The notes beneath the pieces were generated by a model. That model had not been told where the DNA came from. It did no database searches and saw only the letters and a list, made by a program, of their open reading frames with translations. A stretch of DNA of 64,000 nucleotides from positions 161 to 64,160 of IMG/VR virus record IMGVR_UViG_3300045747_000276; one strand, written 5' to 3'. This DNA is from a virus (Duplodnaviria; Caudoviricetes). Numbering within the stretch: the stretch's first letter is position 1; each line of letters opens with the position of its first letter. Made by a program: the position numbers and the translations under genes. Shown in pieces: positions 25,209-51,362 of the stretch.

Positions 25209-25685
25209 ATGATTGAAGTTAAGGCACCAAATAGATCTGGGTGGGACGCACCATGTTCTGTATTTCTGGGTGGGTCAATAGAGATGGGAAAAGCATCTGA
25301 TTGGCAAGATAAATTAAAAAATGATCTTGCTCAATACAATGTTGTTCTATTTAATCCAAGGAGAGAATATTGGGATTCGTCAATGGTTCAATCAATATCC
25401 AACCCAGAATTTAATGAGCAGGTATCATGGGAATTGGAACACATCGAACTCGCTGATCTAGTGGTGTTTTATTTTGACCCATTGACACAGTCCCCAGTAA
25501 CATTGATGGAAGTTGGGCTCTGCGCAGGACTTGGCAAGGCATCTGATGTTATTGTGTGTTGCCCAGACGGATACTTTCGCAAGGGGAACTTGGAAATTGT
25601 GTGCTCTAGGTATGGTATGCCAATTCTAGAAACTTATAATTCGCTTGTTGAGACACTACATCAAAGGTTATCATACTACAATTGA
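25209..25685 (+). CDS. Nucleoside 2-deoxyribosyltransferase-like protein
   Basis: 'VFLGGSI...WQ...FNPRR...QVSWEL...SPVTLMEVG'. Confidence 0.8.
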   Translation: MIEVKAPNRSGWDAPCSVFLGGSIEMGKASDWQDKLKNDLAQYNVVLFNPRREYWDSSMVQSISNPEFNEQVSWELEHIELADLVVFYFDPLTQSPVTLMEVGLCAGLGKASDVIVCCPDGYFRKGNLEIVCSRYGMPILETYNSLVETLHQRLSYYN

Positions 25686-25710
25686 CATTTAAGTCATAAA
25701 TATGTATAAT
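25682..25710 (+). promoter_or_regulatory. Sigma70-type early promoter
   Basis: TTGACA-17 nt-TATAAT directly before a tRNA. Confidence 0.85.
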
Positions 25711-25721
25711 TGATACATGAA

Positions 25722-25797
25722 GCAACTCTAGCATAATGGTTATTGCCGAGAACTCATAATTCTTACGATCCGGGTTCGAGTCCCGGGGGTTGCACCA
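25722..25797 (+). tRNA. tRNA with CAT anticodon (Met or Ile2)
   Basis: Cloverleaf; gagaa-CTCATAA-ttctt; TTCGAGT T-loop; ACCA end. Confidence 0.9.
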
Positions 25798-28834: not shown

Positions 28835-29374
28835 ATGGCTTTAAGTAAACATGCCCACATTATGATAGACACTGAGACACTGAGCCAGCATAAAAATGCT
28901 GTTATTGTGTCAATAGGTGCATGTAAGTTCTCCTTTGAAAAGGGGATCTTCGATGAATTTTATATCAACATTGATGCCAAAGATTCAAAGAAACACGGAC
29001 TCCACATTGATCAGAGCACAATTGATTGGTGGATGAAGCAGGATAAGGCAGCTCGCAATGCGTGGATGGTTGATCCTCAACCATTGAAATTTGCAATGGG
29101 AGAATTGACAAATTGGATTGGTGACGCGAATCATAACTTTTGGGCACACGGTGCATCATTCGACTATCCTATCCTAGAGAGTTCATGGGAAGCGGTCGGA
29201 ATGAAACCTCAGTGGAAATATTGGAATCTAAATGATTCTAGAACCATTATGAACATTGCTGGTATAAACAATAAGACTCTTAGGAGTAATGATGATACTG
29301 TTTACCACAATGCATTGGAAGATTCCAAAGCACAAACAAAGGTTTTGATTGAGTTATTGAAGGATATAATGTAA
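28835..29374 (+). CDS. DEDD 3'-5' exonuclease (DexA-like)
   Basis: 'IDTETL', 'GASFD', 'DSRT', 'HNALED'. Confidence 0.88.
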   Translation: MALSKHAHIMIDTETLSQHKNAVIVSIGACKFSFEKGIFDEFYINIDAKDSKKHGLHIDQSTIDWWMKQDKAARNAWMVDPQPLKFAMGELTNWIGDANHNFWAHGASFDYPILESSWEAVGMKPQWKYWNLNDSRTIMNIAGINNKTLRSNDDTVYHNALEDSKAQTKVLIELLKDIM

Positions 29375-30585
29375 TGAGTGAACATATTAAAACGCGCTTT
29401 CTATTGGCGCTTAGTGGTGGAAGTTTGACGGCAATTAAGAAGTATGTTTCTGGTAATTGGGAACAGCGCAATCTATCAAAGTCGTTTAAGTTTTATAACA
29501 AAGACGCAGATTCTTATTTCTATCACCCAGATTTGCTGTTCAGTGCATTCCATATGAAACCTATTCTTAAGGGTCGTACAATCTGGGATGTGTTAGAAAT
29601 CAACAGGAATGAAAAACGAATGATTTTCATCGACTCTGGTGGTTACTCTATTGCTACAGGTGCAGTGTCTCGAGACAAGTGGACAGACCAGATGGCATTT
29701 GACTTATCTGTCGCCAATGGTAATTTGTTCCCCATTCTAGATATTCCTGTTACACCCAATGCAGACTTTGATGAGCACCTAAAGATCAGCAAAAACAGTG
29801 CACAATTTTACAAGGCAAACAAACCAGGCAACGGTGAGATGATTTTGAATGTTGCACACGGTAGACACATTGAAGAAGTTAAGAGGTGGGTTGATTCTAT
29901 CAGTGAAGTAGAGTTGGATGGTTGGGCTCTAGGTTCAAGTCACAGAGGAAATCCAAAGGAAATCTTGAAGGGCATGTTCTACATGCTAACATCAGGTGTT
30001 CTTGACAAAGCAAAAGCATTCCACGTCTTCGGTGTATCGTCAGCATCAATGATCATTTATTTTGCAGCAGTTAAGCATGCTATTCGCCGAAACAAGTTGA
30101 AGTATAATTTTGATCTTACATTTGATAGTTCATATCCAATGAGGACATTCGCATTTGGTCACTTCTTTGCATTCCGCAAGTTTGATGGGTTTGTGAATGT
30201 GACCATGACTAACACTGTTGATTGGTCACAATTAAAGGATGATGATTTTGCAGATGGGTTCTTTTGTAATTGCCCAGTTTGTTCAAACATCAAGTCTTTC
30301 CCATCATTGATGAAGGATGAGAAGTCAGATGAGCGAGGTATGTGGGGTTCGTTGCATAATTTGCATGAAATGCTAATGTATAAACGGCAGATTGAGGCTC
30401 TGGTAGAAATGTGTATGGATGTAGATGGTCTTGTTGGGAACATTTTCCCTGCAACGATTGCTAGGAACATACTGGTTATCCAAGAGGCATTCAACGACAT
30501 TCCTAATGGTGAGGCAATCATCAATCGTAAATTTGAATACAAAGACATTGATGCAGGCAACTCATTGGAAGGATTCTTCGGATGA
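29374..30585 (+). CDS. TGT-family guanine transglycosylase (tRNA TGT or DpdA-like)
   Basis: 'DSGGY', 'LDIP', 'HG', 'GWALG', 'HVFG', 'FDSS', Zn site 'CNCPVC...HN'. Confidence 0.85.
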   Translation: MSEHIKTRFLLALSGGSLTAIKKYVSGNWEQRNLSKSFKFYNKDADSYFYHPDLLFSAFHMKPILKGRTIWDVLEINRNEKRMIFIDSGGYSIATGAVSRDKWTDQMAFDLSVANGNLFPILDIPVTPNADFDEHLKISKNSAQFYKANKPGNGEMILNVAHGRHIEEVKRWVDSISEVELDGWALGSSHRGNPKEILKGMFYMLTSGVLDKAKAFHVFGVSSASMIIYFAAVKHAIRRNKLKYNFDLTFDSSYPMRTFAFGHFFAFRKFDGFVNVTMTNTVDWSQLKDDDFADGFFCNCPVCSNIKSFPSLMKDEKSDERGMWGSLHNLHEMLMYKRQIEALVEMCMDVDGLVGNIFPATIARNILVIQEAFNDIPNGEAIINRKFEYKDIDAGNSLEGFFG

Positions 30586-30836
30586 ACCGAAACCCATATT
30601 TGTCCTATTACACAGACAAAATTAAGAGTCTACGGAGTGAAATCAATTTGCTCCGTAGAACAGAACGAGCATTCGTAAAGGAAATGAGGAAAGCTTGTTC
30701 TCACTCTGGTCATTTGAAACGTCTACCTGTAATGAGTAAATTACCTATGTTTGCTGCACAGGGCTCAGATCCATTCACAGCGACGGTTAAGTATAAAGTT
30801 GTGTGTCAGGATTGTGGAAAGGTTATTCAGAAATGA
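30582..30836 (+). CDS. Small Zn-binding hypothetical protein
   Basis: CSH...CQDCGK. Confidence 0.6.
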   Translation: MNRNPYLSYYTDKIKSLRSEINLLRRTERAFVKEMRKACSHSGHLKRLPVMSKLPMFAAQGSDPFTATVKYKVVCQDCGKVIQK

Positions 30837-31111
30837 AAATACGAAATGCAGTAAAAAGACTTGAAGATAAAATAACTAAACTATATAATGACATTAAGGA
30901 CATTAGGGAAACCTGTCCCCATGAACATTTGCAAGGCAAATTCGGTGCAAACACGGGGAATTGGTGTAGTAGTGATGATTCCTATTGGGTAGACTTTGTG
31001 TGTCAGGATTGTGGAAAACGCTGGACAGAAGATCAAATGGAGATTGGGTACGGCGTGACCAAAGATGGTTTTAAATTTACTAGAGTTAAGGAGTTCGTTG
31101 TGACTTCTTGA
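30833..31111 (+). CDS. Small Zn-binding hypothetical protein (paralog of the previous ORF)
   Basis: CPH...CQDCGK; shares a 20-nt identical stretch. Confidence 0.6.
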   Translation: MKIRNAVKRLEDKITKLYNDIKDIRETCPHEHLQGKFGANTGNWCSSDDSYWVDFVCQDCGKRWTEDQMEIGYGVTKDGFKFTRVKEFVVTS

Positions 31112-31781
31112 TGTAATATGAAGTCTTCGGTTTACCTATCGACCTGGTGTGTAATTTAATATTGCCAGCATTGAATAGTTTATTACAATGCTGGCACTCA
31201 TACATGTTCTTTGTGGCAAATGTTTTCCTTGTTTCCGCATCATGCACCTTTCCTTTGTTTATCATAACAACTTCCCCAGAAATATAAATAGGATCTGATT
31301 TGTTTATACGAAATATATTACCCAATTTATCCTTAACTGTTACTGAATTGTGCCCTGGATCTGGTACTCTCCCTGGTAACCTACCCTTTATAAAGGTATC
31401 GGGTATTGGTAATCCCTTTGGTATTCTACGTTCTATAGACCCGTTGTTACAATAGTAGTTGCCGTTTCTTTTATAACTCTCATAGTTAGGATAATGATCA
31501 ATCATGTTAATCCACTTTTCTTCATTCTTGGCGTTCAATCGTTTTAGCACCATGGACTCCCATTTCATTGCTACAGACGCACCCTCGAATATTTTTCGTA
31601 TTTGTATTATATCTGGTTCCCCATAAGTATTACGAAAATCTTTTACATATCTAGAACTAGTGAAGTATACTTTCCATAGGTCTTGATGTGGTGTTGTTTT
31701 GTTTGCTGTTCGGACACCATAGTACCATCTATTGTGTTTGGTCCAACCAATTAGGTAGGTGTAAGGTTGAAATTTTGACAT
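31086..31781 (-). mobile_element. GIY-YIG-like homing endonuclease
   Basis: 'YTYLIGW...YYGVR...YFTSS'; TATAAATA on the minus strand at 31816-31823. Confidence 0.75.
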
Positions 31782-31836
31782 AAAATAAGATTTCCTTTAT
31801 CATCAATGTATGTATTATTTATAAGGAGAACATATC

Positions 31837-33282
31837 GTGTGTGGAATAGGTGGTGTATTAAATTTTGGGTCAAATACGTTTGAGGATTATAATGGTTTTC
31901 TCAATCAGTTGACACAACGCGGTAGGGACTCTTTAGGTATTATGGTATATGACGACCAGGGTCGGGTGTCTACTACTAAGTACCTAGATCAAAAGAGCAT
32001 AGGAAGTTACTTCCCATTGAACGACATCGTTAAGTTGATGATGGTTAATGTTAGAGCGGTGCCCACATCATTCTCAGAGGGTAATGTTAAGATGGAAGAT
32101 GGTTACCTTCAACCTTATGTTATTCGTGGTGAAGCGTCACCCAAGCAACATCGTGCCATAATTCACAATGGCACAATAGCTAATGATGACACTCTAAACA
32201 AGACATTCGATTACCTAATCAATGACGACAATGGTGCAGTGTATTTTGATAGACGGCAAGTTCCTATTGATTCAACTGTATTTTTGAATTATTCCTCTAA
32301 GACCCTATGTGATGCTATTCGTGATCAAGAGATAGTCGGTTCATTTAGTGGGGCTCTGTGGGATGAACCTGAAGCCACAGTAGTGTTGTTTAAAAATTAT
32401 ATGCCATTACATATTATGATTGACTACACTGCCCGGCGTGTGTGGTGGTCTAATGTAAAAGAAGCACTATATGAGGTGGGTGGGAACGAAGTTGCATATT
32501 TTGATGTCCCTGCATATACATCTATTTTTATCCCGTATCACCGGACTTTTGATGAAGTTGTGCATATCATCAAACAAGGTATGCGAAAGGGTGGTAACCT
32601 CTATGGGAAACAAAAAGCGGAAAAGGCATTAGTTGTTTGCTCTTCCGGATTGGATTCAACTACAGTTGCAGCTCTCGCTGTAAAGAAATACGGCAAAGAC
32701 AATGTGACATTGTTGCATTATAACTATGGATGTAAGGCAGAATCACGGGAACAATTCCGAATTGTTCAAATTGCAGAACGATTAGGTTGTTCCTATAAGA
32801 TAGTTGACATTAGCACAGTTTTTGCAGGAATGAAGTCCCCTATTCTAGGTACAAATGGCGACATTAGCAAAGGTGATGCAGGGGTAGAATATGCAAAGGA
32901 ATGGGTACCAGCACGTAATTTGATTATGATGTCTGTAGCGTTGGGTGTTGCAGAAGATGGTGGGTTCTCTACAATCCAATTGGGTGCCAACTTGACAGAA
33001 CAAGCATCATTCCCAGACAACTCATTGGATTTCACAGAGAAGTTGAATGTATTGAGCGCGTATGCCGTGCAGAATAATGTACGAATCCGGGTTGAAGCAC
33101 CTCTTGTGAATCTGATGAAACAAGAGATCGTGAAGATTGGTATTGAAGTGAACACACCTTACGAGTTAACATGGTCTTGCTATCACAATGGAGAAACCCA
33201 CTGTGGTGAGTGTGCTCCATGCCAGATGAGGAAGCAAGCATTTGAAATGAACGGGTTAGTTGACCCGGTGATGAAAGGTTAA
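31837..33282 (+). CDS. queC: Gat-QueC fusion (Ntn glutamine amidotransferase plus preQ0 synthase)
   Basis: 'MCGIGG', 'RGRDS', 'HNGTI'; QueC 'SSGLDS', 'VPARN', 'TWSCY...HCGECAPC..R'. Confidence 0.9.
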   Translation: MCGIGGVLNFGSNTFEDYNGFLNQLTQRGRDSLGIMVYDDQGRVSTTKYLDQKSIGSYFPLNDIVKLMMVNVRAVPTSFSEGNVKMEDGYLQPYVIRGEASPKQHRAIIHNGTIANDDTLNKTFDYLINDDNGAVYFDRRQVPIDSTVFLNYSSKTLCDAIRDQEIVGSFSGALWDEPEATVVLFKNYMPLHIMIDYTARRVWWSNVKEALYEVGGNEVAYFDVPAYTSIFIPYHRTFDEVVHIIKQGMRKGGNLYGKQKAEKALVVCSSGLDSTTVAALAVKKYGKDNVTLLHYNYGCKAESREQFRIVQIAERLGCSYKIVDISTVFAGMKSPILGTNGDISKGDAGVEYAKEWVPARNLIMMSVALGVAEDGGFSTIQLGANLTEQASFPDNSLDFTEKLNVLSAYAVQNNVRIRVEAPLVNLMKQEIVKIGIEVNTPYELTWSCYHNGETHCGECAPCQMRKQAFEMNGLVDPVMKG

Positions 33283-40435: not shown

Positions 40436-40476
40436 AATTGTGGCATCCATCGCGGTGCCATTCTTAGTTCATTATT

Positions 40477-40664
40477 AGGAAAAGTTCAGCAAACATACAC
40501 TTTACGTAAATACTAATACTAATGTATGGAGATTCTCGAAGGAGATGACAGATCGGAAAGACGGTATGCCGATAGGAAAGACTATTGCTAATTGATAAAA
40601 GTAGTCAATGACTCTGTGACAAAGACACAGTAATAGTGGTAATCCACAATACTTTTCCTGTTAA
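40477..40664 (+). ncRNA. TCAGCAA-box structured RNA, copy 1
   Basis: aggaaaagt-TCAGCAA...acttttcct-GTTAA; several internal hairpins. Confidence 0.7.
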
Positions 40665-40669
40665 AATTT

Positions 40670-40906
40670 TGGATAATTTCAGCAATTATTAAACGACAAA
40701 TGCTGTTGACGGTGCCTTGTTTGGGGTGATGTGTAGTTATGTTAGAAATAACACACCAATGGAACAGATATGCGATGTAACAGAAAACACATCGGGTGAA
40801 GAGACCTTACATCTTATAGCTCATAAGCGAAAGTTATGATATTGCGTGGAGGGTTTCAGGTAACACGCGTGAATAAATTGAAACAAGACCTCAGATATCC
40901 AGTTAA
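40670..40906 (+). ncRNA. TCAGCAA-box structured RNA, copy 2
   Basis: tggata..TCAGCAA...tatcca-GTTAA; multi-stem interior. Confidence 0.65.
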
Positions 40907-40915
40907 TCGAATAGT

Positions 40916-41045
40916 AGGATAGATTCAGCAACTAATTAAAAGTACTAAGACGGCATATCGAAGCGGACTGATAATCTCCGTGGATATATGCCAAACAAGT
41001 TTTTGACAGTCACTTGTAAAATAAACTACCAAAGCTATCCTGATA
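40916..41045 (+). ncRNA. TCAGCAA-box structured RNA, copy 3
   Basis: aggatag.t-TCAGCAA...ctatcct-GATA. Confidence 0.65.
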
Positions 41046-41111
41046 CTATTTAAATACAACAGACTTTAATTTACGCTCTTAGTCTGTGAGCGGTAATAAG
41101 TAGGAGACGAC

Positions 41112-41873
41112 ATGATGTATAATCAAAAATTTATAGCGACAGTTAAAACAGACGGTAAAGTTCTTAGGGAGTTTAAGGACACAATTTACATACCGTACGG
41201 CAGCGAATATTCTGTATACCTAATGAACATGAATAGTGTTCGAGCAAAAGTCAAGGTATCAATTGATGGTGAGGATGTACTAAATGGTGATGATTTAGTA
41301 ATTGCACCAAACACTTCAATTGAACTAGAGCGGTTTATGGAGACTATGGACAAAGGTCACAAGTTCAAATTCATTGAACGATCATCTGAAATAGAATCGC
41401 ACAGGGGTCTCAGGGCAGAAGATGGTTTGTTGAGGGTAGAATATACCTTTGAGAAAGTATCCGCTCCAATTGTTAATAATTACCCACCCTTTAATTACCC
41501 ACCAGGTGTTCGCGCATTCGGTGTCAATGATTGGGGTAAACCGGTGCTTATGGCACAAACATACGATAGTTATTCACCTAGCAATAGTAGTTTGTTTGTA
41601 TCTGCTTCTGCAAAATCTTTCAGTTCATCAAGTGTGGGTATAACTACTAAAGGTAGTATTTCAACTCAGCAATTTCAGAAAGTTTCAGATTTTACAACCG
41701 ATGGCGTGTCTCATGTTATGGTACTACACCTTCAAGGTGAAAATCAAGGTAAACCGGTAGTCACCCCAATTGATGTTAAGAGGGTACAGAAGTGTGATTG
41801 TTGCGGCAAGGTAAATCCAGTCTCAGCAAAGTTCTGCAATTCGTGTGGAACATCATTAGAAGTGTTAGTGTAA
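41112..41873 (+). CDS. Hypothetical protein (beta-rich N-terminus, C-terminal Zn ribbon)
   Basis: RBS aggag; 'CDCCG...FCNSCG'. Confidence 0.75.
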   Translation: MMYNQKFIATVKTDGKVLREFKDTIYIPYGSEYSVYLMNMNSVRAKVKVSIDGEDVLNGDDLVIAPNTSIELERFMETMDKGHKFKFIERSSEIESHRGLRAEDGLLRVEYTFEKVSAPIVNNYPPFNYPPGVRAFGVNDWGKPVLMAQTYDSYSPSNSSLFVSASAKSFSSSSVGITTKGSISTQQFQKVSDFTTDGVSHVMVLHLQGENQGKPVVTPIDVKRVQKCDCCGKVNPVSAKFCNSCGTSLEVLV

Positions 41874-41962
41874 ATATTTTTAAAATATTTTGATATTTTT
41901 CAGAATTTTGAATATTTCAGGCATATATATTATATAGAAAACAAATTCCAACAGGAAACCAA

Positions 41963-42085
41963 ATGACAAGACTTTTATGTAACATGCAAAAAACAACCCA
42001 GGGTGCAACACGCCCTGAGTGGCATGCTGCAGTACCATTTTATGGTAATGATTCTATTAGTGGGTTGGGGAGTGGGTCTTGTTGA
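41963..42085 (+). CDS. Putative leader peptide (40 aa; not in the ORF track)
   Basis: RBS agga; MTRLLCNMQKTTQGATRPEWHAAVPFYGNDSISGLGSGSC; its end overlaps the antiterminator strand. Confidence 0.6.
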   Translation: MTRLLCNMQKTTQGATRPEWHAAVPFYGNDSISGLGSGSC

Positions 42086-42152
42086 AGGTGTAAAAAGAAG
42101 AAGAAAGAACAAGACCCAACAAGTAGCAATATTTGTTGGGTTTTGTCATTTT
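42073..42152 (+). terminator. Attenuator-like terminator/antiterminator
   Basis: 42073-42083 tgggtcttgtt pairs with 42108-42118 aacaagaccca, which alternatively pairs in the 15-bp stem 42109-42123/42132-42146. Confidence 0.65.
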
Positions 42153-42251
42153 AGTGGTTCAAATCAATGGGTTATGAAAGTGCTTGCAATTTAAGTTGAA
42201 GTCTGTCATAATTGATTTTGTTGTGTTGATTGAAGATGTAAAAATCATCGG

Positions 42252-42280
42252 TTGACATTAAAGATTTTGTATTATACAAT
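42252..42280 (+). promoter_or_regulatory. Sigma70-type promoter ahead of the RNA cluster
   Basis: TTGACA-17-TACAAT. Confidence 0.7.
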
Positions 42281-42309
42281 AAGGTTTGAATAAAAGGTTT
42301 ATATTATGT

Positions 42310-42610
42310 TTCAGCGAAATATGGGTTTGTAGGAAACAAGAGCCCGACAAGAAGTTTCCCCTTATGAGACGCCTCCGGTTTCATATTGAAAGAAGTTAAT
42401 CACACCGTCAGGTGAATGGTAAAATTGTTTGACAAACAACAGTGAGGTGTGGGGATGCAACGAGAGCTGGAAACCACAAGAAAAAGATCAATAGTCGTCC
42501 TGATATTCAGAAATGAATATCGTGATGCTCAAAAAGCATTATCCGGAAAAGCCATCACCAGGATGGATTAAAGGAGGATTTAAAATGAGCCTTGATGCAA
42601 TGTCAGGGCA
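42310..42610 (+). ncRNA. Unidentified multi-hairpin RNA (about 300 nt)
   Basis: No credible ORF; successive hairpins such as gatattca-GAAA-tgaatatc, tatgagac/gtttcata, gccttga/tcagggc. Confidence 0.45.
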
Positions 42611-42711
42611 CATTTTGAAGTGTTTTATTTCATTGCTGAAATTTGATCAGTTAGACAGGGTGCATCAAATAACCTATGTCGTGAATGATAGAATATTTCA
42701 AAATGTAAATT

Positions 42712-42797
42712 GGACGTGTAGGAAAATTGGTAACCCCAGAAGACTGTAAATCTTCCGCCTCACGGCATTGTTGGTTCGACCCCAACCGCGTCCACCA
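42712..42797 (+). tRNA. tRNA-Tyr(GTA)
   Basis: gaaga-CTGTAAA-tcttc; long variable arm; ACCA. Confidence 0.9.
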
Positions 42798-42803
42798 AAC
42801 AAT

Positions 42804-42878
42804 GTCGCATTAGACTTCTAGTGAGGTCATCAGCCTTTCACGCTGACCAGACGGGGGCAGAACCCGTATGCGACTCCA
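42804..42878 (+). tRNA. tRNA-Glu(TTC)
   Basis: tcagc-CTTTCAC-gctga; atypical T-loop GGCAGAA; TCCA. Confidence 0.85.
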
Positions 42879-42889
42879 GACAAATTAAT

Positions 42890-42958
42890 GGGCTTACCGA
42901 ATGGGTCGGGAAAGACACTTGCAATGTCATGCTTGCGGATCGTTACCGCATAGGTCCA
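42890..42958 (+). tRNA. tRNA-Ala(TGC)
   Basis: gaca-CTTGCAA-tgtc; G3.U70 pair; no encoded CCA. Confidence 0.7.
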
Positions 42959-42999
42959 CACAGAGTGAATTTTGCATAAATACATGTAAGGAGGACAAG

Positions 43000-43582
43000 A
43001 TGTTCTATTATTTGTATGAGATAACCAATAAGGTTAATGACAAAATTTACGTAGGGGTGCATAAGACATCAGATTTGAATGATGGTTTATATGGGCTCTG
43101 GAAAGATAATTCAGCATGCAATTGCAAAGCATGGTGTACTGAATTTTTCTAAAGTCATACTAGAGCATTTTGATACATCAGATGCTATGTATGCAAGAGA
43201 AGCAGAATTGGTGAATGCCGAATTCTTAGAAAGAGATGACGTGTATAACCTCCGTAGAGGAGGACATGGCGGGTTTGATTACATTAACAAATATTGTGGT
43301 AATCAGGGTATCCGGATGAATTCACACATGTCTAATGAGACCAGACGCAAGGGTGCATTTAAAATGATTGAAATATGTAAACGTGACGGATTGGGTGTTT
43401 ACTCAGATTCCAGAATAAACATATTTAAAGATAAATCATTCCAAGATGAAATGACAAATAGGGCCAGAATTCATAATATGGGTTCTAAATGGGTCACTAA
43501 TGGTATAGAGAATAGAAAAATAAAGAAAGATGTTTTGATACCTGATGGGTGGAAATTAGGTAGAGTCATTAAGCCGCTGTAG
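43000..43582 (+). pseudogene. Frameshifted GIY-YIG homing endonuclease
   Basis: MFYYLYEITN..YVGVH..DG then YMGSG in another frame (one extra T near 43087); CATAAATA at 42975. Confidence 0.8.
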
Positions 43583-43647
43583 TCCTCGGGGAGGGCAGTT
43601 GATTGTCTATCAATATCAGGTGGGTTCGAGTCCCATCAGCGGCGCCA
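43573..43647 (+). tRNA. tRNA-Asp(GTC)
   Basis: gttga-TTGTCTA-tcaat; GCCA. Confidence 0.85.
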
Positions 43648-49929: not shown

Positions 49930-50270
49930 TGGTAGTAAACTGATCGTAAGAAACGATTGCAACACGGGAGTGCAACTCTCCTCACCTCCACCATAAGAAC
50001 TCTGAATCTTGCAGCAATGCATGATCAGGTTTGGTACTCCAGATCCCTCTTGCACGGTAACACCGATAACAAAGACAGATGCACCGAGAGTTCTTTTGAT
50101 GGGGGTGCCTTAGGATCGACTGCGAAAGAAGTACAATGCATTGGCTACTCGTCACAGATAGACGTAAAAAGTAAAACGCAATTAAATGCAAACGACGAAA
50201 GATTCGCTTTAGCCGCATAGGCCTAGCGTAAGGAGTTCGATGGGTTGTCCTTATAACAGACTCAACCCAT
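49930..50270 (+). ncRNA. ssrA: Circularly permuted (two-piece) tmRNA
   Basis: Acceptor piece ends cacctcc-ACCA at 49993; coding piece begins GGGGGTG at 50101 (G3.U70); tag ANDERFALAA* at 50188-50220. Confidence 0.92.
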
Positions 50271-50457
50271 CATAATTGAGTGCGAATCGAAATTGATCCT
50301 AACCATGTCGCTCTACCTGCTAAGGGATAAACAATGCTGGAAACCTTTGACTGTGGTGGTCATTGCACACACCAGTGCAGGGCACTCAATTATTGCAGAA
50401 TTTGACATCAAAGAATTTGTCATATATAATTCATACATCAATTAAATAAACCAAAGG

Positions 50458-51273: not shown

Positions 51274-51362
51274 GGAAGATTATTGATGCAGGTGCATCAC
51301 ATTGCCTCGAAAACAATTGGGGTCCTAAAGGGCCTGGGGTTCGATACCTCAATCTTCCTCCA
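51274..51362 (+). tRNA. tRNA-Ser(CGA)
   Basis: attg-c-CTCGAAA-a-caat; long variable arm; TCCA. Confidence 0.78.

What the first reader, a model, noticed from the sequence alone, without database searches (positions are those of the whole stretch)
41963..42152. Leader peptide using all 20 amino acids, coupled to an attenuator upstream of the tRNA array
An unannotated 40-codon ORF with an RBS (MTRLLCNMQKTTQGATRPEWHAAVPFYGNDSISGLGSGSC) contains all 20 amino acids by codon 32; with uniform usage the expected wait is about 72 codons. Its last codons (tgggtcttgtt, 42073-42083) are exactly complementary to the 5' arm of the downstream terminator-like stem. A ribosome reaching the stop would allow termination, and stalling at any earlier codon would favour antitermination. 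Inference: a pan-tRNA depletion sensor that turns on the tRNA/ncRNA cluster when host tRNAs are cleaved. Caveats: sigma70-like promoters at about 42184 and 42252 lie downstream and could bypass it, and the T-tract is short.
Basis: partly seen in the sequence, partly recalled or inferred. Interest (0 to 1): 0.88.

Follow-up and report, generated by a model that had tools for sequence, protein, structure and literature searches.

The report
Short ORF and terminator before tRNA array
A short, probably translated reading frame ends inside a stretch that can pair with a strong transcription terminator just ahead of a phage tRNA array, but nothing tested shows that it senses tRNA loss, and the array has its own strong promoter downstream.

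Summary
The 40-codon ORF (41963-42085) has a ribosome-binding site and uses all 20 amino acids by codon 32. Its last 11 nt are exactly complementary to 42108-42118, in the 5' arm of the strongest terminator hairpin of the window (42109-42146).

The pairing is beyond chance: 14 of 20000 shuffles reach it, and it is the only one of 13 hairpins tested with more than 7 nt. The amino-acid diversity is not. About 0.4 such ORFs are expected among the window's 566 ORFs, and one was seen.

No homologue of the peptide or of the spacer was found in any locus fetched from relatives (85 searched, 18) or in three public collections. Conservation therefore could not be tested.

A consensus-type promoter at 42252-42280 lies between terminator and tRNAs. 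It is one of 13 same-strand copies, with none on the other strand.

Predicted energies let the core terminator form even when the antiterminator is present.

Best reading (0.55): this is an ordinary end of a transcription unit, a small ORF plus an insulating terminator. Translation-coupled attenuator: 0.27. Evolved pan-tRNA sensor: about 0.06.

The parts
41112..41873 (+). Upstream gene: a 253-aa protein of unknown function with a C-terminal zinc-ribbon-like CxxC...CxxC motif. It is probably the last long gene of the transcription unit that the terminator ends.
   Evidence: ORF. Weak Zn_Ribbon_1 hit, below the Pfam cut-off. 39.6% identical to XacN1 ORF366. At least 356 metagenome relatives, all at most 46% identical. 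No PHROG match.
41874..41962 (+). AT-rich spacer (19% GC) holding the ribosome-binding site AGGAAA (41953-41958). It also holds a weak promoter-like pair, TTGAAT (41908-41913), 17 nt, TATATA (41931-41936).
   Evidence: GC content; sequence. The promoter-like pair is my own reading. The scan did not list it, because the last base of the second hexamer is not T.
41963..42085 (+). 40-codon ORF ending in TGA. It is probably translated. No family or homologue was found.
   Evidence: Codon-usage score 0.224, against 0.354 +/- 0.129 for gene chunks and -0.012 +/- 0.167 for 151 small ORFs, of which 6% score as high. CAI-like value 0.736, against 0.714 +/- 0.052 for gene chunks; 8.6% of small ORFs score as high. 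No homologue.
42073..42083 (+). 5' strand of the possible antiterminator. It covers the last codons and the first base of the stop codon.
   Evidence: I5. 14 of 20000 shuffles reach this length. The hairpin 42073-42118 alone folds at -15.1 kcal/mol.
42108..42118 (+). 3' strand of the possible antiterminator. It is shared with the lower 5' arm of the terminator and includes its three C residues, 42115-42117.
42109..42146 (+). Intrinsic terminator. The extended stem has 17 pairs, loop GCAA. Its core is ACCCAACAAGUA / UAUUUGUUGGGU (42114-42141), followed by a T-rich tail to 42152.
   Evidence: -25.5 kcal/mol, z -8.5. It is the strongest + strand hairpin with a T-rich tail in the window (-20.8).
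42184..42212 (+). Weaker promoter-like site: TTGCAA, 17 nt, CATAAT, with TG before the second hexamer.
   Evidence: 9 of 12.
42252..42280 (+). Strong promoter of the phage's own family (TTGACA, 17 nt, TACAAT), placed between the terminator and the tRNA array.
   Evidence: 11 of 12. It is one of 13 matches to TTGAC[AG]-N17-[TC]A[TC]AAT on the + strand, with 0 on the - strand. My reading of the printed rows is that most share an A-rich TTGACAnnnAAG-like extension.
42712..42797 (+). tRNA-Tyr (GTA), the first recognised tRNA of the array.
   Evidence: 83-90% identical to the tRNA-Tyr of 18 other viral contigs.

Best explanation
The segment is the ordinary 3' end of the transcription unit that carries the 253-aa gene. 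A short ORF, probably a real small phage gene, is followed by the strongest intrinsic terminator of the window. The terminator insulates that unit from the tRNA/tmRNA array. The array is transcribed mainly from its own consensus-type promoter at 42252-42280, perhaps helped by the weaker site at 42184. On this reading the 20 amino-acid types in 32 codons are a chance property of a compositionally ordinary peptide.

The 11-nt complementarity is real. It gives the RNA a hairpin that forms before the terminator's 3' arm is made, but I take it to have at most a small effect on termination. The terminator's upper stem is free to nucleate, and it can take back the three G-C pairs at no predicted energy cost.

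Shown: the ORF, the ribosome-binding site, the terminator, the complementarity and its rarity, the promoter family, and the failure to find homologues. Inferred: which promoter drives what, that the ORF is translated, and that the terminator terminates.
For: - Terminator strength: 17 pairs, -25.5 kcal/mol, z -8.5, the best + strand hairpin with a T-rich tail in the window.
- Promoter: 42252-42280 matches 11 of 12. It belongs to a set of 13 near-consensus sites, all on the + strand and none on the - strand. Another 12-of-12 copy sits about 12 nt ahead of the lone tRNA-Met at 25722, so tRNA genes here sit directly behind such promoters.
- Amino-acid diversity: about 0.4 ORFs expected against 1 seen. 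A 47-aa ORF next to the homologous gene in L008 also has all 20 types.
- State energies over 42066-42152: antiterminator plus upper stem -20.2, partial antiterminator plus core terminator -19.9, full terminator -23.2 kcal/mol. At equilibrium the terminator has P at least 0.95 in every modelled ribosome position.
- Relatives: a tRNA or tmRNA starts within 225 nt after the homologous gene in 8 of 80 loci. None has a related peptide or spacer. In L036 the gene is followed by a 12-bp hairpin, which I read in the sequence printed.
- The leader has no run of any codon.
Against: - The 11-nt perfect complement is rare (14 of 20000 shuffles) and unique among the 13 hairpins tested. This reading leaves it unexplained.
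- Its position is what a translation-coupled switch needs. The stop codon begins at the last base of the complement. A ribosome at the stop abolishes the helix, while ribosomes at codons 5, 20 or 32 leave it.
- Before the 3' arm exists, the antiterminator has probability about 1, so kinetic trapping is possible. Equilibrium energies cannot exclude it.
- The ORF looks coding, so a ribosome is probably there.
Confidence: 0.55

Rival explanations
1. Translation-coupled transcription attenuator that senses general translation capacity. The antiterminator 42073-42083:42108-42118 forms as soon as it is transcribed. Only a ribosome that has reached the TGA in time masks it and lets the terminator form. 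Slow, stalled or absent translation of the 40 codons, from any cause, therefore lets transcripts from the upstream unit run on into the tRNA/tmRNA array, adding to the array's own promoter.
For: - The complementarity is beyond chance.
- The ribosome-mask model behaves as required at transcript end 42132.
- The antiterminator is in the minimum-energy fold for 3' ends 42118-42132.
- The ORF has a ribosome-binding site typical of the phage and gene-like codon usage.
- The roughly 60 nt from the stop codon to the terminator's end is, from recall, similar to the trp leader.
Against: - No conservation could be shown.
- The core terminator is isoenergetic with the full antiterminator, and its upper stem is not sequestered.
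- The terminator wins at equilibrium.
- No pause element or synchronising hairpin is supported. The pairing of ORF start with ORF end is matched by 27.5% of shuffles.
- A strong promoter between the attenuator and its supposed targets limits what it could control.
- No promoter for the leader passes the scan.
Confidence: 0.27
2. The same attenuator, but with a leader selected to contain every amino acid before the point where a ribosome would mask the antiterminator, so that depletion of any host tRNA switches on the phage tRNA array.
For: All 20 types are reached at codon 32. Codon 32 was the latest stall position modelled, and it still leaves 42073 free (mask 42041-42070). The remaining 8 codons add no new type. 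The element sits ahead of an array of at least 28 tRNAs plus a tmRNA. Phage tRNAs as an answer to tRNA-cleaving defences is an established idea (PMC10264068, PMC11555353, PMC11464382; search listing and start of abstracts only).
Against: The composition is within chance given 566 ORFs in the window, and the property was chosen after seeing the peptide. A single codon of each kind is a weak stall signal compared with the codon runs of known leaders (recall). All objections to the general attenuator apply as well. None of the 8 relatives' loci where a tRNA or tmRNA starts within 225 nt after the homologous gene has anything comparable.
Confidence: 0.06
3. A separate small transcript of about 210 nt, running from a weak promoter near 41908-41936 to the terminator. 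It would act as a small RNA or as the mRNA of a small protein, and the internal pairings would serve its stability rather than regulation of the array.
For: A promoter-like pair TTGAAT-17-TATATA lies about 25 nt ahead of the ATG (my reading). A terminator lies at the 3' end. The whole 41940-42160 stretch folds with z -3.7.
Against: The promoter-like pair fails the scan's criteria. The ORF part alone is not unusually structured (z -1.0). No Rfam family reaches its gathering score. No homologues were found.
Confidence: 0.07

Closest known systems
Leader-peptide transcription attenuators of amino-acid operons (trp, his, phe, thr, leu, ilv of enterobacteria; from established knowledge, not from a call)
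   Same: A short ORF with a ribosome-binding site, an intrinsic terminator downstream, and an alternative helix that shares bases with the terminator's 5' arm. The formation of that helix depends on where the ribosome sits.
   Different: There are no runs of a regulatory codon. Only three pairing segments have support, not four, since the pairing of ORF start with ORF end is not beyond chance. With three segments, no translation would give read-through rather than termination. The antiterminator covers only the lowest part of the terminator stem. A strong promoter lies between the element and its supposed targets. It sits in a phage, ahead of tRNA genes.
uORF attenuators that sense ribosome stalling in general: vmlR of Bacillus subtilis (PMC9226507) and toiL of E. 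coli (PMC12121999). I saw only the search listing and the start of each abstract.
   Same: A short uORF without codon runs, in which stalling from many causes would change a downstream termination event.
   Different: Those control resistance or toxin-antitoxin genes in bacteria. By its abstract, toiL senses several classes of ribosome-targeting antibiotics. Here the signal, the response and even translation are all unshown.
Plain intrinsic terminator followed by a promoter at a boundary between transcription units
   Same: A G-C-based stem with an A-rich 5' flank and a T-rich tail, and a consensus promoter 106 nt further on.
   Different: The extra 11-nt complement upstream is not expected of a plain terminator.
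T-box leader RNAs, which sense uncharged tRNA directly
   Same: They control read-through of a terminator in response to tRNA status.
   Different: They need no ORF and have a conserved specifier loop and T-box sequence. No such match was found here.

Membership tests
Leader-peptide (ribosome-mediated) transcription attenuator | Short ORF with a ribosome-binding site in the leader | tested here: met
   40 codons, with AGGAAA 4 nt before the ATG. Codon usage is gene-like. Translation itself is not shown.
Leader-peptide (ribosome-mediated) transcription attenuator | Intrinsic terminator downstream of the ORF | tested here: met
   42109-42146, -25.5 kcal/mol, z -8.5, with a T-rich tail.
Leader-peptide (ribosome-mediated) transcription attenuator | Mutually exclusive antiterminator whose formation depends on ribosome position | tested here: inconclusive
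   The 11-bp helix shares 42109-42118 with the terminator arm and is rare by chance. It is abolished only by a ribosome at the stop codon. However, the core terminator can coexist with a shortened antiterminator at equal predicted energy, and the terminator wins at equilibrium.
Leader-peptide (ribosome-mediated) transcription attenuator | Regulatory codons in runs or clusters within the leader | tested here: not met
   No amino acid occurs more than twice in a row (LL, TT, AA). The commonest are G (6) and S (5), mostly in the last 8 codons.
Leader-peptide (ribosome-mediated) transcription attenuator | Promoter upstream of the leader, with the regulated genes directly downstream and no bypassing promoter | tested here: not met
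   No site upstream of the ORF passes the scan, and sites at 42184 and 42252 lie between the terminator and the tRNAs.
Leader-peptide (ribosome-mediated) transcription attenuator | Conservation of the ORF and the pairings in relatives (covariation) | not testable with these tools
   No homologue was found in phage records, viral contigs, genome contigs, the loci fetched from relatives (85 searched, 18) or protein collections.
Intrinsic (Rho-independent) terminator | G-C-containing hairpin followed at once by a U-rich tract | tested here: met
   The tail TTTTGTCATTTT follows the GGG of the 3' arm. Termination itself is not measured.
T-box riboswitch | Match to the T-box leader model | tested here: not met
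   No T-box match among the 6 weak Rfam matches at E up to 10 in 41850-42720.

The most novel reading that the evidence does not exclude
A jumbo phage carries a translation-stress sensor ahead of its tRNA/tmRNA array. This is a three-segment leader-peptide attenuator whose 40-codon leader samples every amino acid before the ribosome reaches the antiterminator. Loss of any host tRNA, for example through an anticodon nuclease, or any general slowing of translation, would then let late transcripts read through into the phage's own tRNA and tmRNA genes.
Probability: 0.06. Interest if true: 0.85.

Novelty: new member of a known kind. Interest (0 to 1): 0.35.

Why it matters
If the pairing did couple termination to translation of the short ORF, this would be a phage-encoded sensor of translation capacity placed ahead of a tRNA/tmRNA array. 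It would link the current view of phage tRNAs as a counter to tRNA-cleaving defences (PMC10264068, PMC11555353, PMC11464382; abstracts only) to a regulatory mechanism. My four literature searches listed no paper describing such a mechanism, though I read only listings and abstract starts.

As it stands, the evidence supports a real but unexplained RNA pairing next to an ordinary terminator-promoter boundary. The finding is also a worked example of how an eye-catching composition, all 20 amino acids in 32 codons, falls within chance once the number of ORFs is counted.

Tried and rejected
Searches for relatives of the element:
- Megablast of 41100-42720 against phage records gave no match. Sensitive blastn of 41100-43600 hit only the homing-endonuclease gene.
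- A degenerate DNA pattern for peptide residues 18-28 gave 0 hits in viral contigs and 0 in genome contigs.
- Terminator and antiterminator patterns gave 0 hits in viral contigs.
- The same pattern gave 2 hits in genome contigs (L105, L106). Both are unrelated perfect palindromes in bacterial MAGs with no similar flanks, so I rejected them.
- The 3' end of tRNA-Tyr gave 0 hits in viral contigs.

Protein searches with the peptide:
- No word-sharing candidate.
- Four hits in the representative library are long tandem-repeat proteins matched in 4-10 stretches at 35-38% identity. I rejected them as repeat-inflated.
- No PHROG match. Only DUF5544, at E 0.091 and below the cut-off.

Synteny and loci of relatives:
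- XacN1, Xoo-sp13, RAS14 and L002 have no tRNA array after the homologous gene.
- tblastn of the peptide and blastn of 41874-42711 against the 85 loci then held and the 18 tRNA-Tyr loci gave only chance-level hits. The best peptide E-value was 0.33.

Other ideas tested:
- Structured RNA in the ORF part alone: z -1.0, rejected.
- A four-segment trp-like scheme using ORF start paired with ORF end: 27.5% of shuffles do as well, rejected.
- Opal suppression of the ORF's TGA by the 'tRNA-Sec' match at 51274-51358: its anticodon reads CGA, so it is tRNA-Ser. TGA ends 20 of 50 long ORFs. Rejected.
- Repeated copies of the stem motif in the window: only the two arms themselves plus four 3-mismatch hits. 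Three of 100 shuffles gave as many.

Sequencing runs: no RNA holder was listed. One possible source run and one other run hold identical pieces, with no variant in the element. This gives no information on expression or conservation.

No supplements of papers were consulted. All papers were seen only as search listings with the start of the abstract.

Full report
CONTEXT

The window is almost all of a 64,160-base linear IMG/VR virus record estimated at 36% complete. It carries 29 tRNA genes by ARAGORN, 28 of them between 42712 and 52645. It also has further tRNA matches and a permuted tmRNA by Rfam, QueC- and TGT-like genes and GIY-YIG homing-endonuclease genes.

The 253-aa gene just upstream of the finding (41112-41873) is 39.6% identical to ORF366 of the jumbo phage XacN1 and 31-33% to genes of Xoo-sp13, CM1 and RAS14. 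The phage is therefore a distant relative of XacN1-type jumbo phages. Megablast against 50,697 phage records found nothing.

THE OBSERVATION

All elements are present as described.
- ORF 41963-42085 encodes the quoted 40-aa peptide.
- AGGAAA lies 4 nt before the ATG, like the AGGA/AAGGA sites before the window's long ORFs.
- The twentieth amino-acid type is reached at codon 32.
- 42073-42083 is perfectly complementary to 42108-42118.
- The downstream hairpin 42109-42146 has 17 pairs and folds at -25.5 kcal/mol with z -8.5. It is the strongest + strand hairpin with a T-rich tail in the whole window.

IS IT MORE THAN CHANCE?

The two striking properties behave differently.

Amino-acid diversity. 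One of 566 ORFs of at least 32 aa in the window has all 20 types by codon 32, and 4 of 566 by codon 40. The frequency per 32-residue window is:
- 21 of 32,781 in stop-free frames;
- 0.00079 in a composition-matched simulation;
- 11 of 11,913 in the long ORFs.

About 0.36-0.45 such ORFs are therefore expected per window, and one is seen. A 47-aa ORF beside the homologous gene in a relative (L008) also has all 20 types.

Complementarity. An 11-nt perfect complement to the terminator's 5' arm occurs in 14 of 20,000 dinucleotide shuffles of the upstream 141 nt. A duplex energy as low as observed occurs in 0.55% of 2,000 shuffles. Among 13 hairpins of the window, the other 12 have upstream complements of only 4-7 nt. 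The pairing is a real stand-out.

IS THE ORF CODING?

The evidence is modest but positive.
- Its codon log-odds score is 0.224. In-frame chunks of long genes score 0.354 +/- 0.129. The 151 other small + strand ORFs score -0.012 +/- 0.167, and 6% of them reach 0.224.
- Its synonymous-codon index is 0.736. Gene chunks score 0.714 +/- 0.052 and small ORFs 0.645 +/- 0.064, with 8.6% as high.
- It groups with other intergenic small ORFs that have an ATG, a Shine-Dalgarno site and a high index.
- The genetic code looks standard. TGA ends 20 of 50 long ORFs, and the 'tRNA-Sec' match at 51274-51358 has anticodon CGA.

RNA MECHANICS

Folding growing transcripts from 41930 shows the antiterminator 42073-42083:42108-42118 in the minimum-energy structure for 3' ends 42118-42132. 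The terminator replaces it from 42140 on.

With nucleotides masked as if by a ribosome, and the transcript ending at 42132, the antiterminator has:
- probability about 1 with no ribosome, or with a ribosome whose A site is at codon 5, 20 or 32;
- probability 0 with the A site at the stop codon.

Codon 32 is also the latest position I modelled that leaves 42073 free.

Three points weigh against a working switch.
- At full length the terminator has P at least 0.95 in every case.
- The antiterminator covers only the lowest part of the stem. The upper 7 pairs can nucleate freely.
- The state 'shortened antiterminator plus 12-bp core terminator' (-19.9) is isoenergetic with 'full antiterminator plus upper stem' (-20.2). 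The full terminator is at -23.2 kcal/mol.

Whether the antiterminator holds the three G-C pairs for long enough is a kinetic question that these tools cannot answer.

A fourth segment at the ORF start, which pairs with the ORF end in the full-length minimum-energy fold, is not beyond chance: 27.5% of shuffles do as well. The ORF part alone is not unusually structured (z -1.0).

TRANSCRIPTION CONTEXT

The pattern TTGAC[AG]-N17-[TC]A[TC]AAT occurs 13 times on the + strand and never on the - strand. By my reading of the printed rows, most copies share an A-rich extension after the first hexamer. One copy is 42252-42280 (11 of 12), 106 nt after the terminator and about 430 nt before tRNA-Tyr.

Another copy (12 of 12, at 25682-25710) ends about 12 nt before the lone tRNA-Met. 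A third (50402-50430) precedes a later part of the array. The array therefore very probably has its own strong promoters, and whatever passes the terminator only adds to them.

Upstream of the ORF, no site passes the scan. I read a weak TTGAAT-17-TATATA at 41908-41936 in the 19%-GC spacer.

RELATIVES

I found no homologue of the element anywhere.
- DNA patterns for the peptide and for the stems: 0 in viral contigs and 0 for the peptide in genome contigs.
- Two stem-pattern hits in genome contigs are unrelated palindromes.
- The peptide has no relatives in two protein collections, apart from repeat-inflated hits.

The upstream gene's family is large. At least 356 metagenome stretches were confirmed, and the best 80 were kept, all at most 46% identical. 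In 8 of these 80 loci a tRNA or tmRNA starts 10-224 nt after the gene: L008, L010, L013, L017, L019, L022, L026 and L036. Many of the 80 loci have little downstream sequence. None carries a related peptide or spacer.

Three of the eight have a different, mutually related Cys-rich small ORF. One (L036) has a 12-bp hairpin straight after the stop codon.

Eighteen viral contigs share the tRNA-Tyr (83-90% identical), mostly in a conserved Glu-Tyr-Asp order. Again nothing matches 41874-42632.

Two sequencing runs hold identical pieces, and no RNA run was listed.

VERDICT

The most likely reading (0.55) is an ordinary unit end: a small, probably translated ORF, then a strong insulating terminator, then the array's own promoter. 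That reading leaves one real, unexplained extra, the 11-nt complement.

A translation-coupled attenuator that lets upstream transcripts into the array when the short ORF is translated slowly is a serious rival (0.27). Its geometry fits and the pairing is rare. It lacks conservation, a supported synchronising element, a leader promoter and a clear thermodynamic block, and it is bypassed by a promoter.

The specific pan-tRNA-sensor idea rests on a composition that is within chance (about 0.06). A separate small transcript is a minor alternative (0.07).

LITERATURE

Four searches listed no paper on a leader-peptide attenuator ahead of phage tRNA genes. I saw only listings and the starts of abstracts. 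Subscription papers and supplements were not covered.

Noticed in passing
window 42802-42878: A tRNA-Glu(TTC)-like sequence right after tRNA-Tyr. It is 88% identical to the tRNA-Glu of relatives L092 and L088 and 85% to that of L090. Neither ARAGORN nor Rfam called it, so it may be a slightly degenerate or unusual tRNA.
   Followed up: partly
window, 13 sites on the + strand (1635, 8636, 17399, 25682, 33605, 42252, 50402, 53214, 54147, 59319, 59582, 59652, 60068): A family of near-consensus sigma-70-type promoters, TTGAC[AG]-N17-[TC]A[TC]AAT. All 13 are on the + strand and none on the - strand. By my reading, most share an A-rich extension after the first hexamer.
   Followed up: partly
window 42901-43582: A SegB-like GIY-YIG homing-endonuclease gene between tRNA-Tyr and tRNA-Asp appears split over two overlapping frames (42901-43152 and 43079-43582). 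It is about 70% identical at the DNA level to T4 segB.
   Followed up: no
window 42455-42749: Two further small ORFs with Shine-Dalgarno sites lie in the roughly 430-nt leader between the 42252 promoter and tRNA-Tyr. One is 38 aa from the ATG at 42455. The other is 54 aa from the ATG at 42585, behind AAAGGAGGA, and runs 38 nt into tRNA-Tyr. Neither has a family match. A -17.6 kcal/mol hairpin lies at 42579-42619.
   Followed up: partly
window 42633-42682: A 50-nt stretch is 84% and 80% identical to intergenic stretches inside the tRNA arrays of L090 and L088. It is a conserved element of unknown role.
   Followed up: no
window 40462-41111: A 650-nt stretch with no ORF of 60 aa or more and no Rfam match at E up to 1. 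It lies between a hairpin after the 196-aa gene (40440-40461) and the 253-aa gene.
   Followed up: partly
window 49931-50220: A permuted tmRNA (Rfam RF04321, 91.7 bits) lies inside the tRNA array. Relatives L008, L010 and L013 carry a tmRNA within 165 nt after their homologue of the 253-aa gene; L012 and L080 carry one 0.7-2.3 kb after it, and L073 and L086 carry one upstream of it.
   Followed up: no
L027, L028, L029, L038, L040, L048, L050, L053, L058, L066, L067, L070, L072, L073, L077, L078, L085: 17 of the 80 metagenome loci with a homologue of the 253-aa gene carry a tRNA with anticodon CTA nearby. ARAGORN labels it 'Pyl'; it is an amber-suppressor type. This hints at TAG reassignment in part of this phage group. 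The window has none.
   Followed up: no
L008 1431-1574, L010 2155-2307, L013 4347-4535: A conserved small Cys-rich ORF of 47-62 aa with a shared C-terminal ...KMAAK(D/E)IKELL-like end. It lies between the homologue of the 253-aa gene and the tmRNA and overlaps the called 5' end of the tmRNA.
   Followed up: no
window 29374-33282: A TGT-like gene (PF01702) and a fusion of a glutamine amidotransferase-like domain with QueC (PF06508, E 2.5e-51). These suggest 7-deazaguanine modification of the phage's DNA or tRNA.
   Followed up: no
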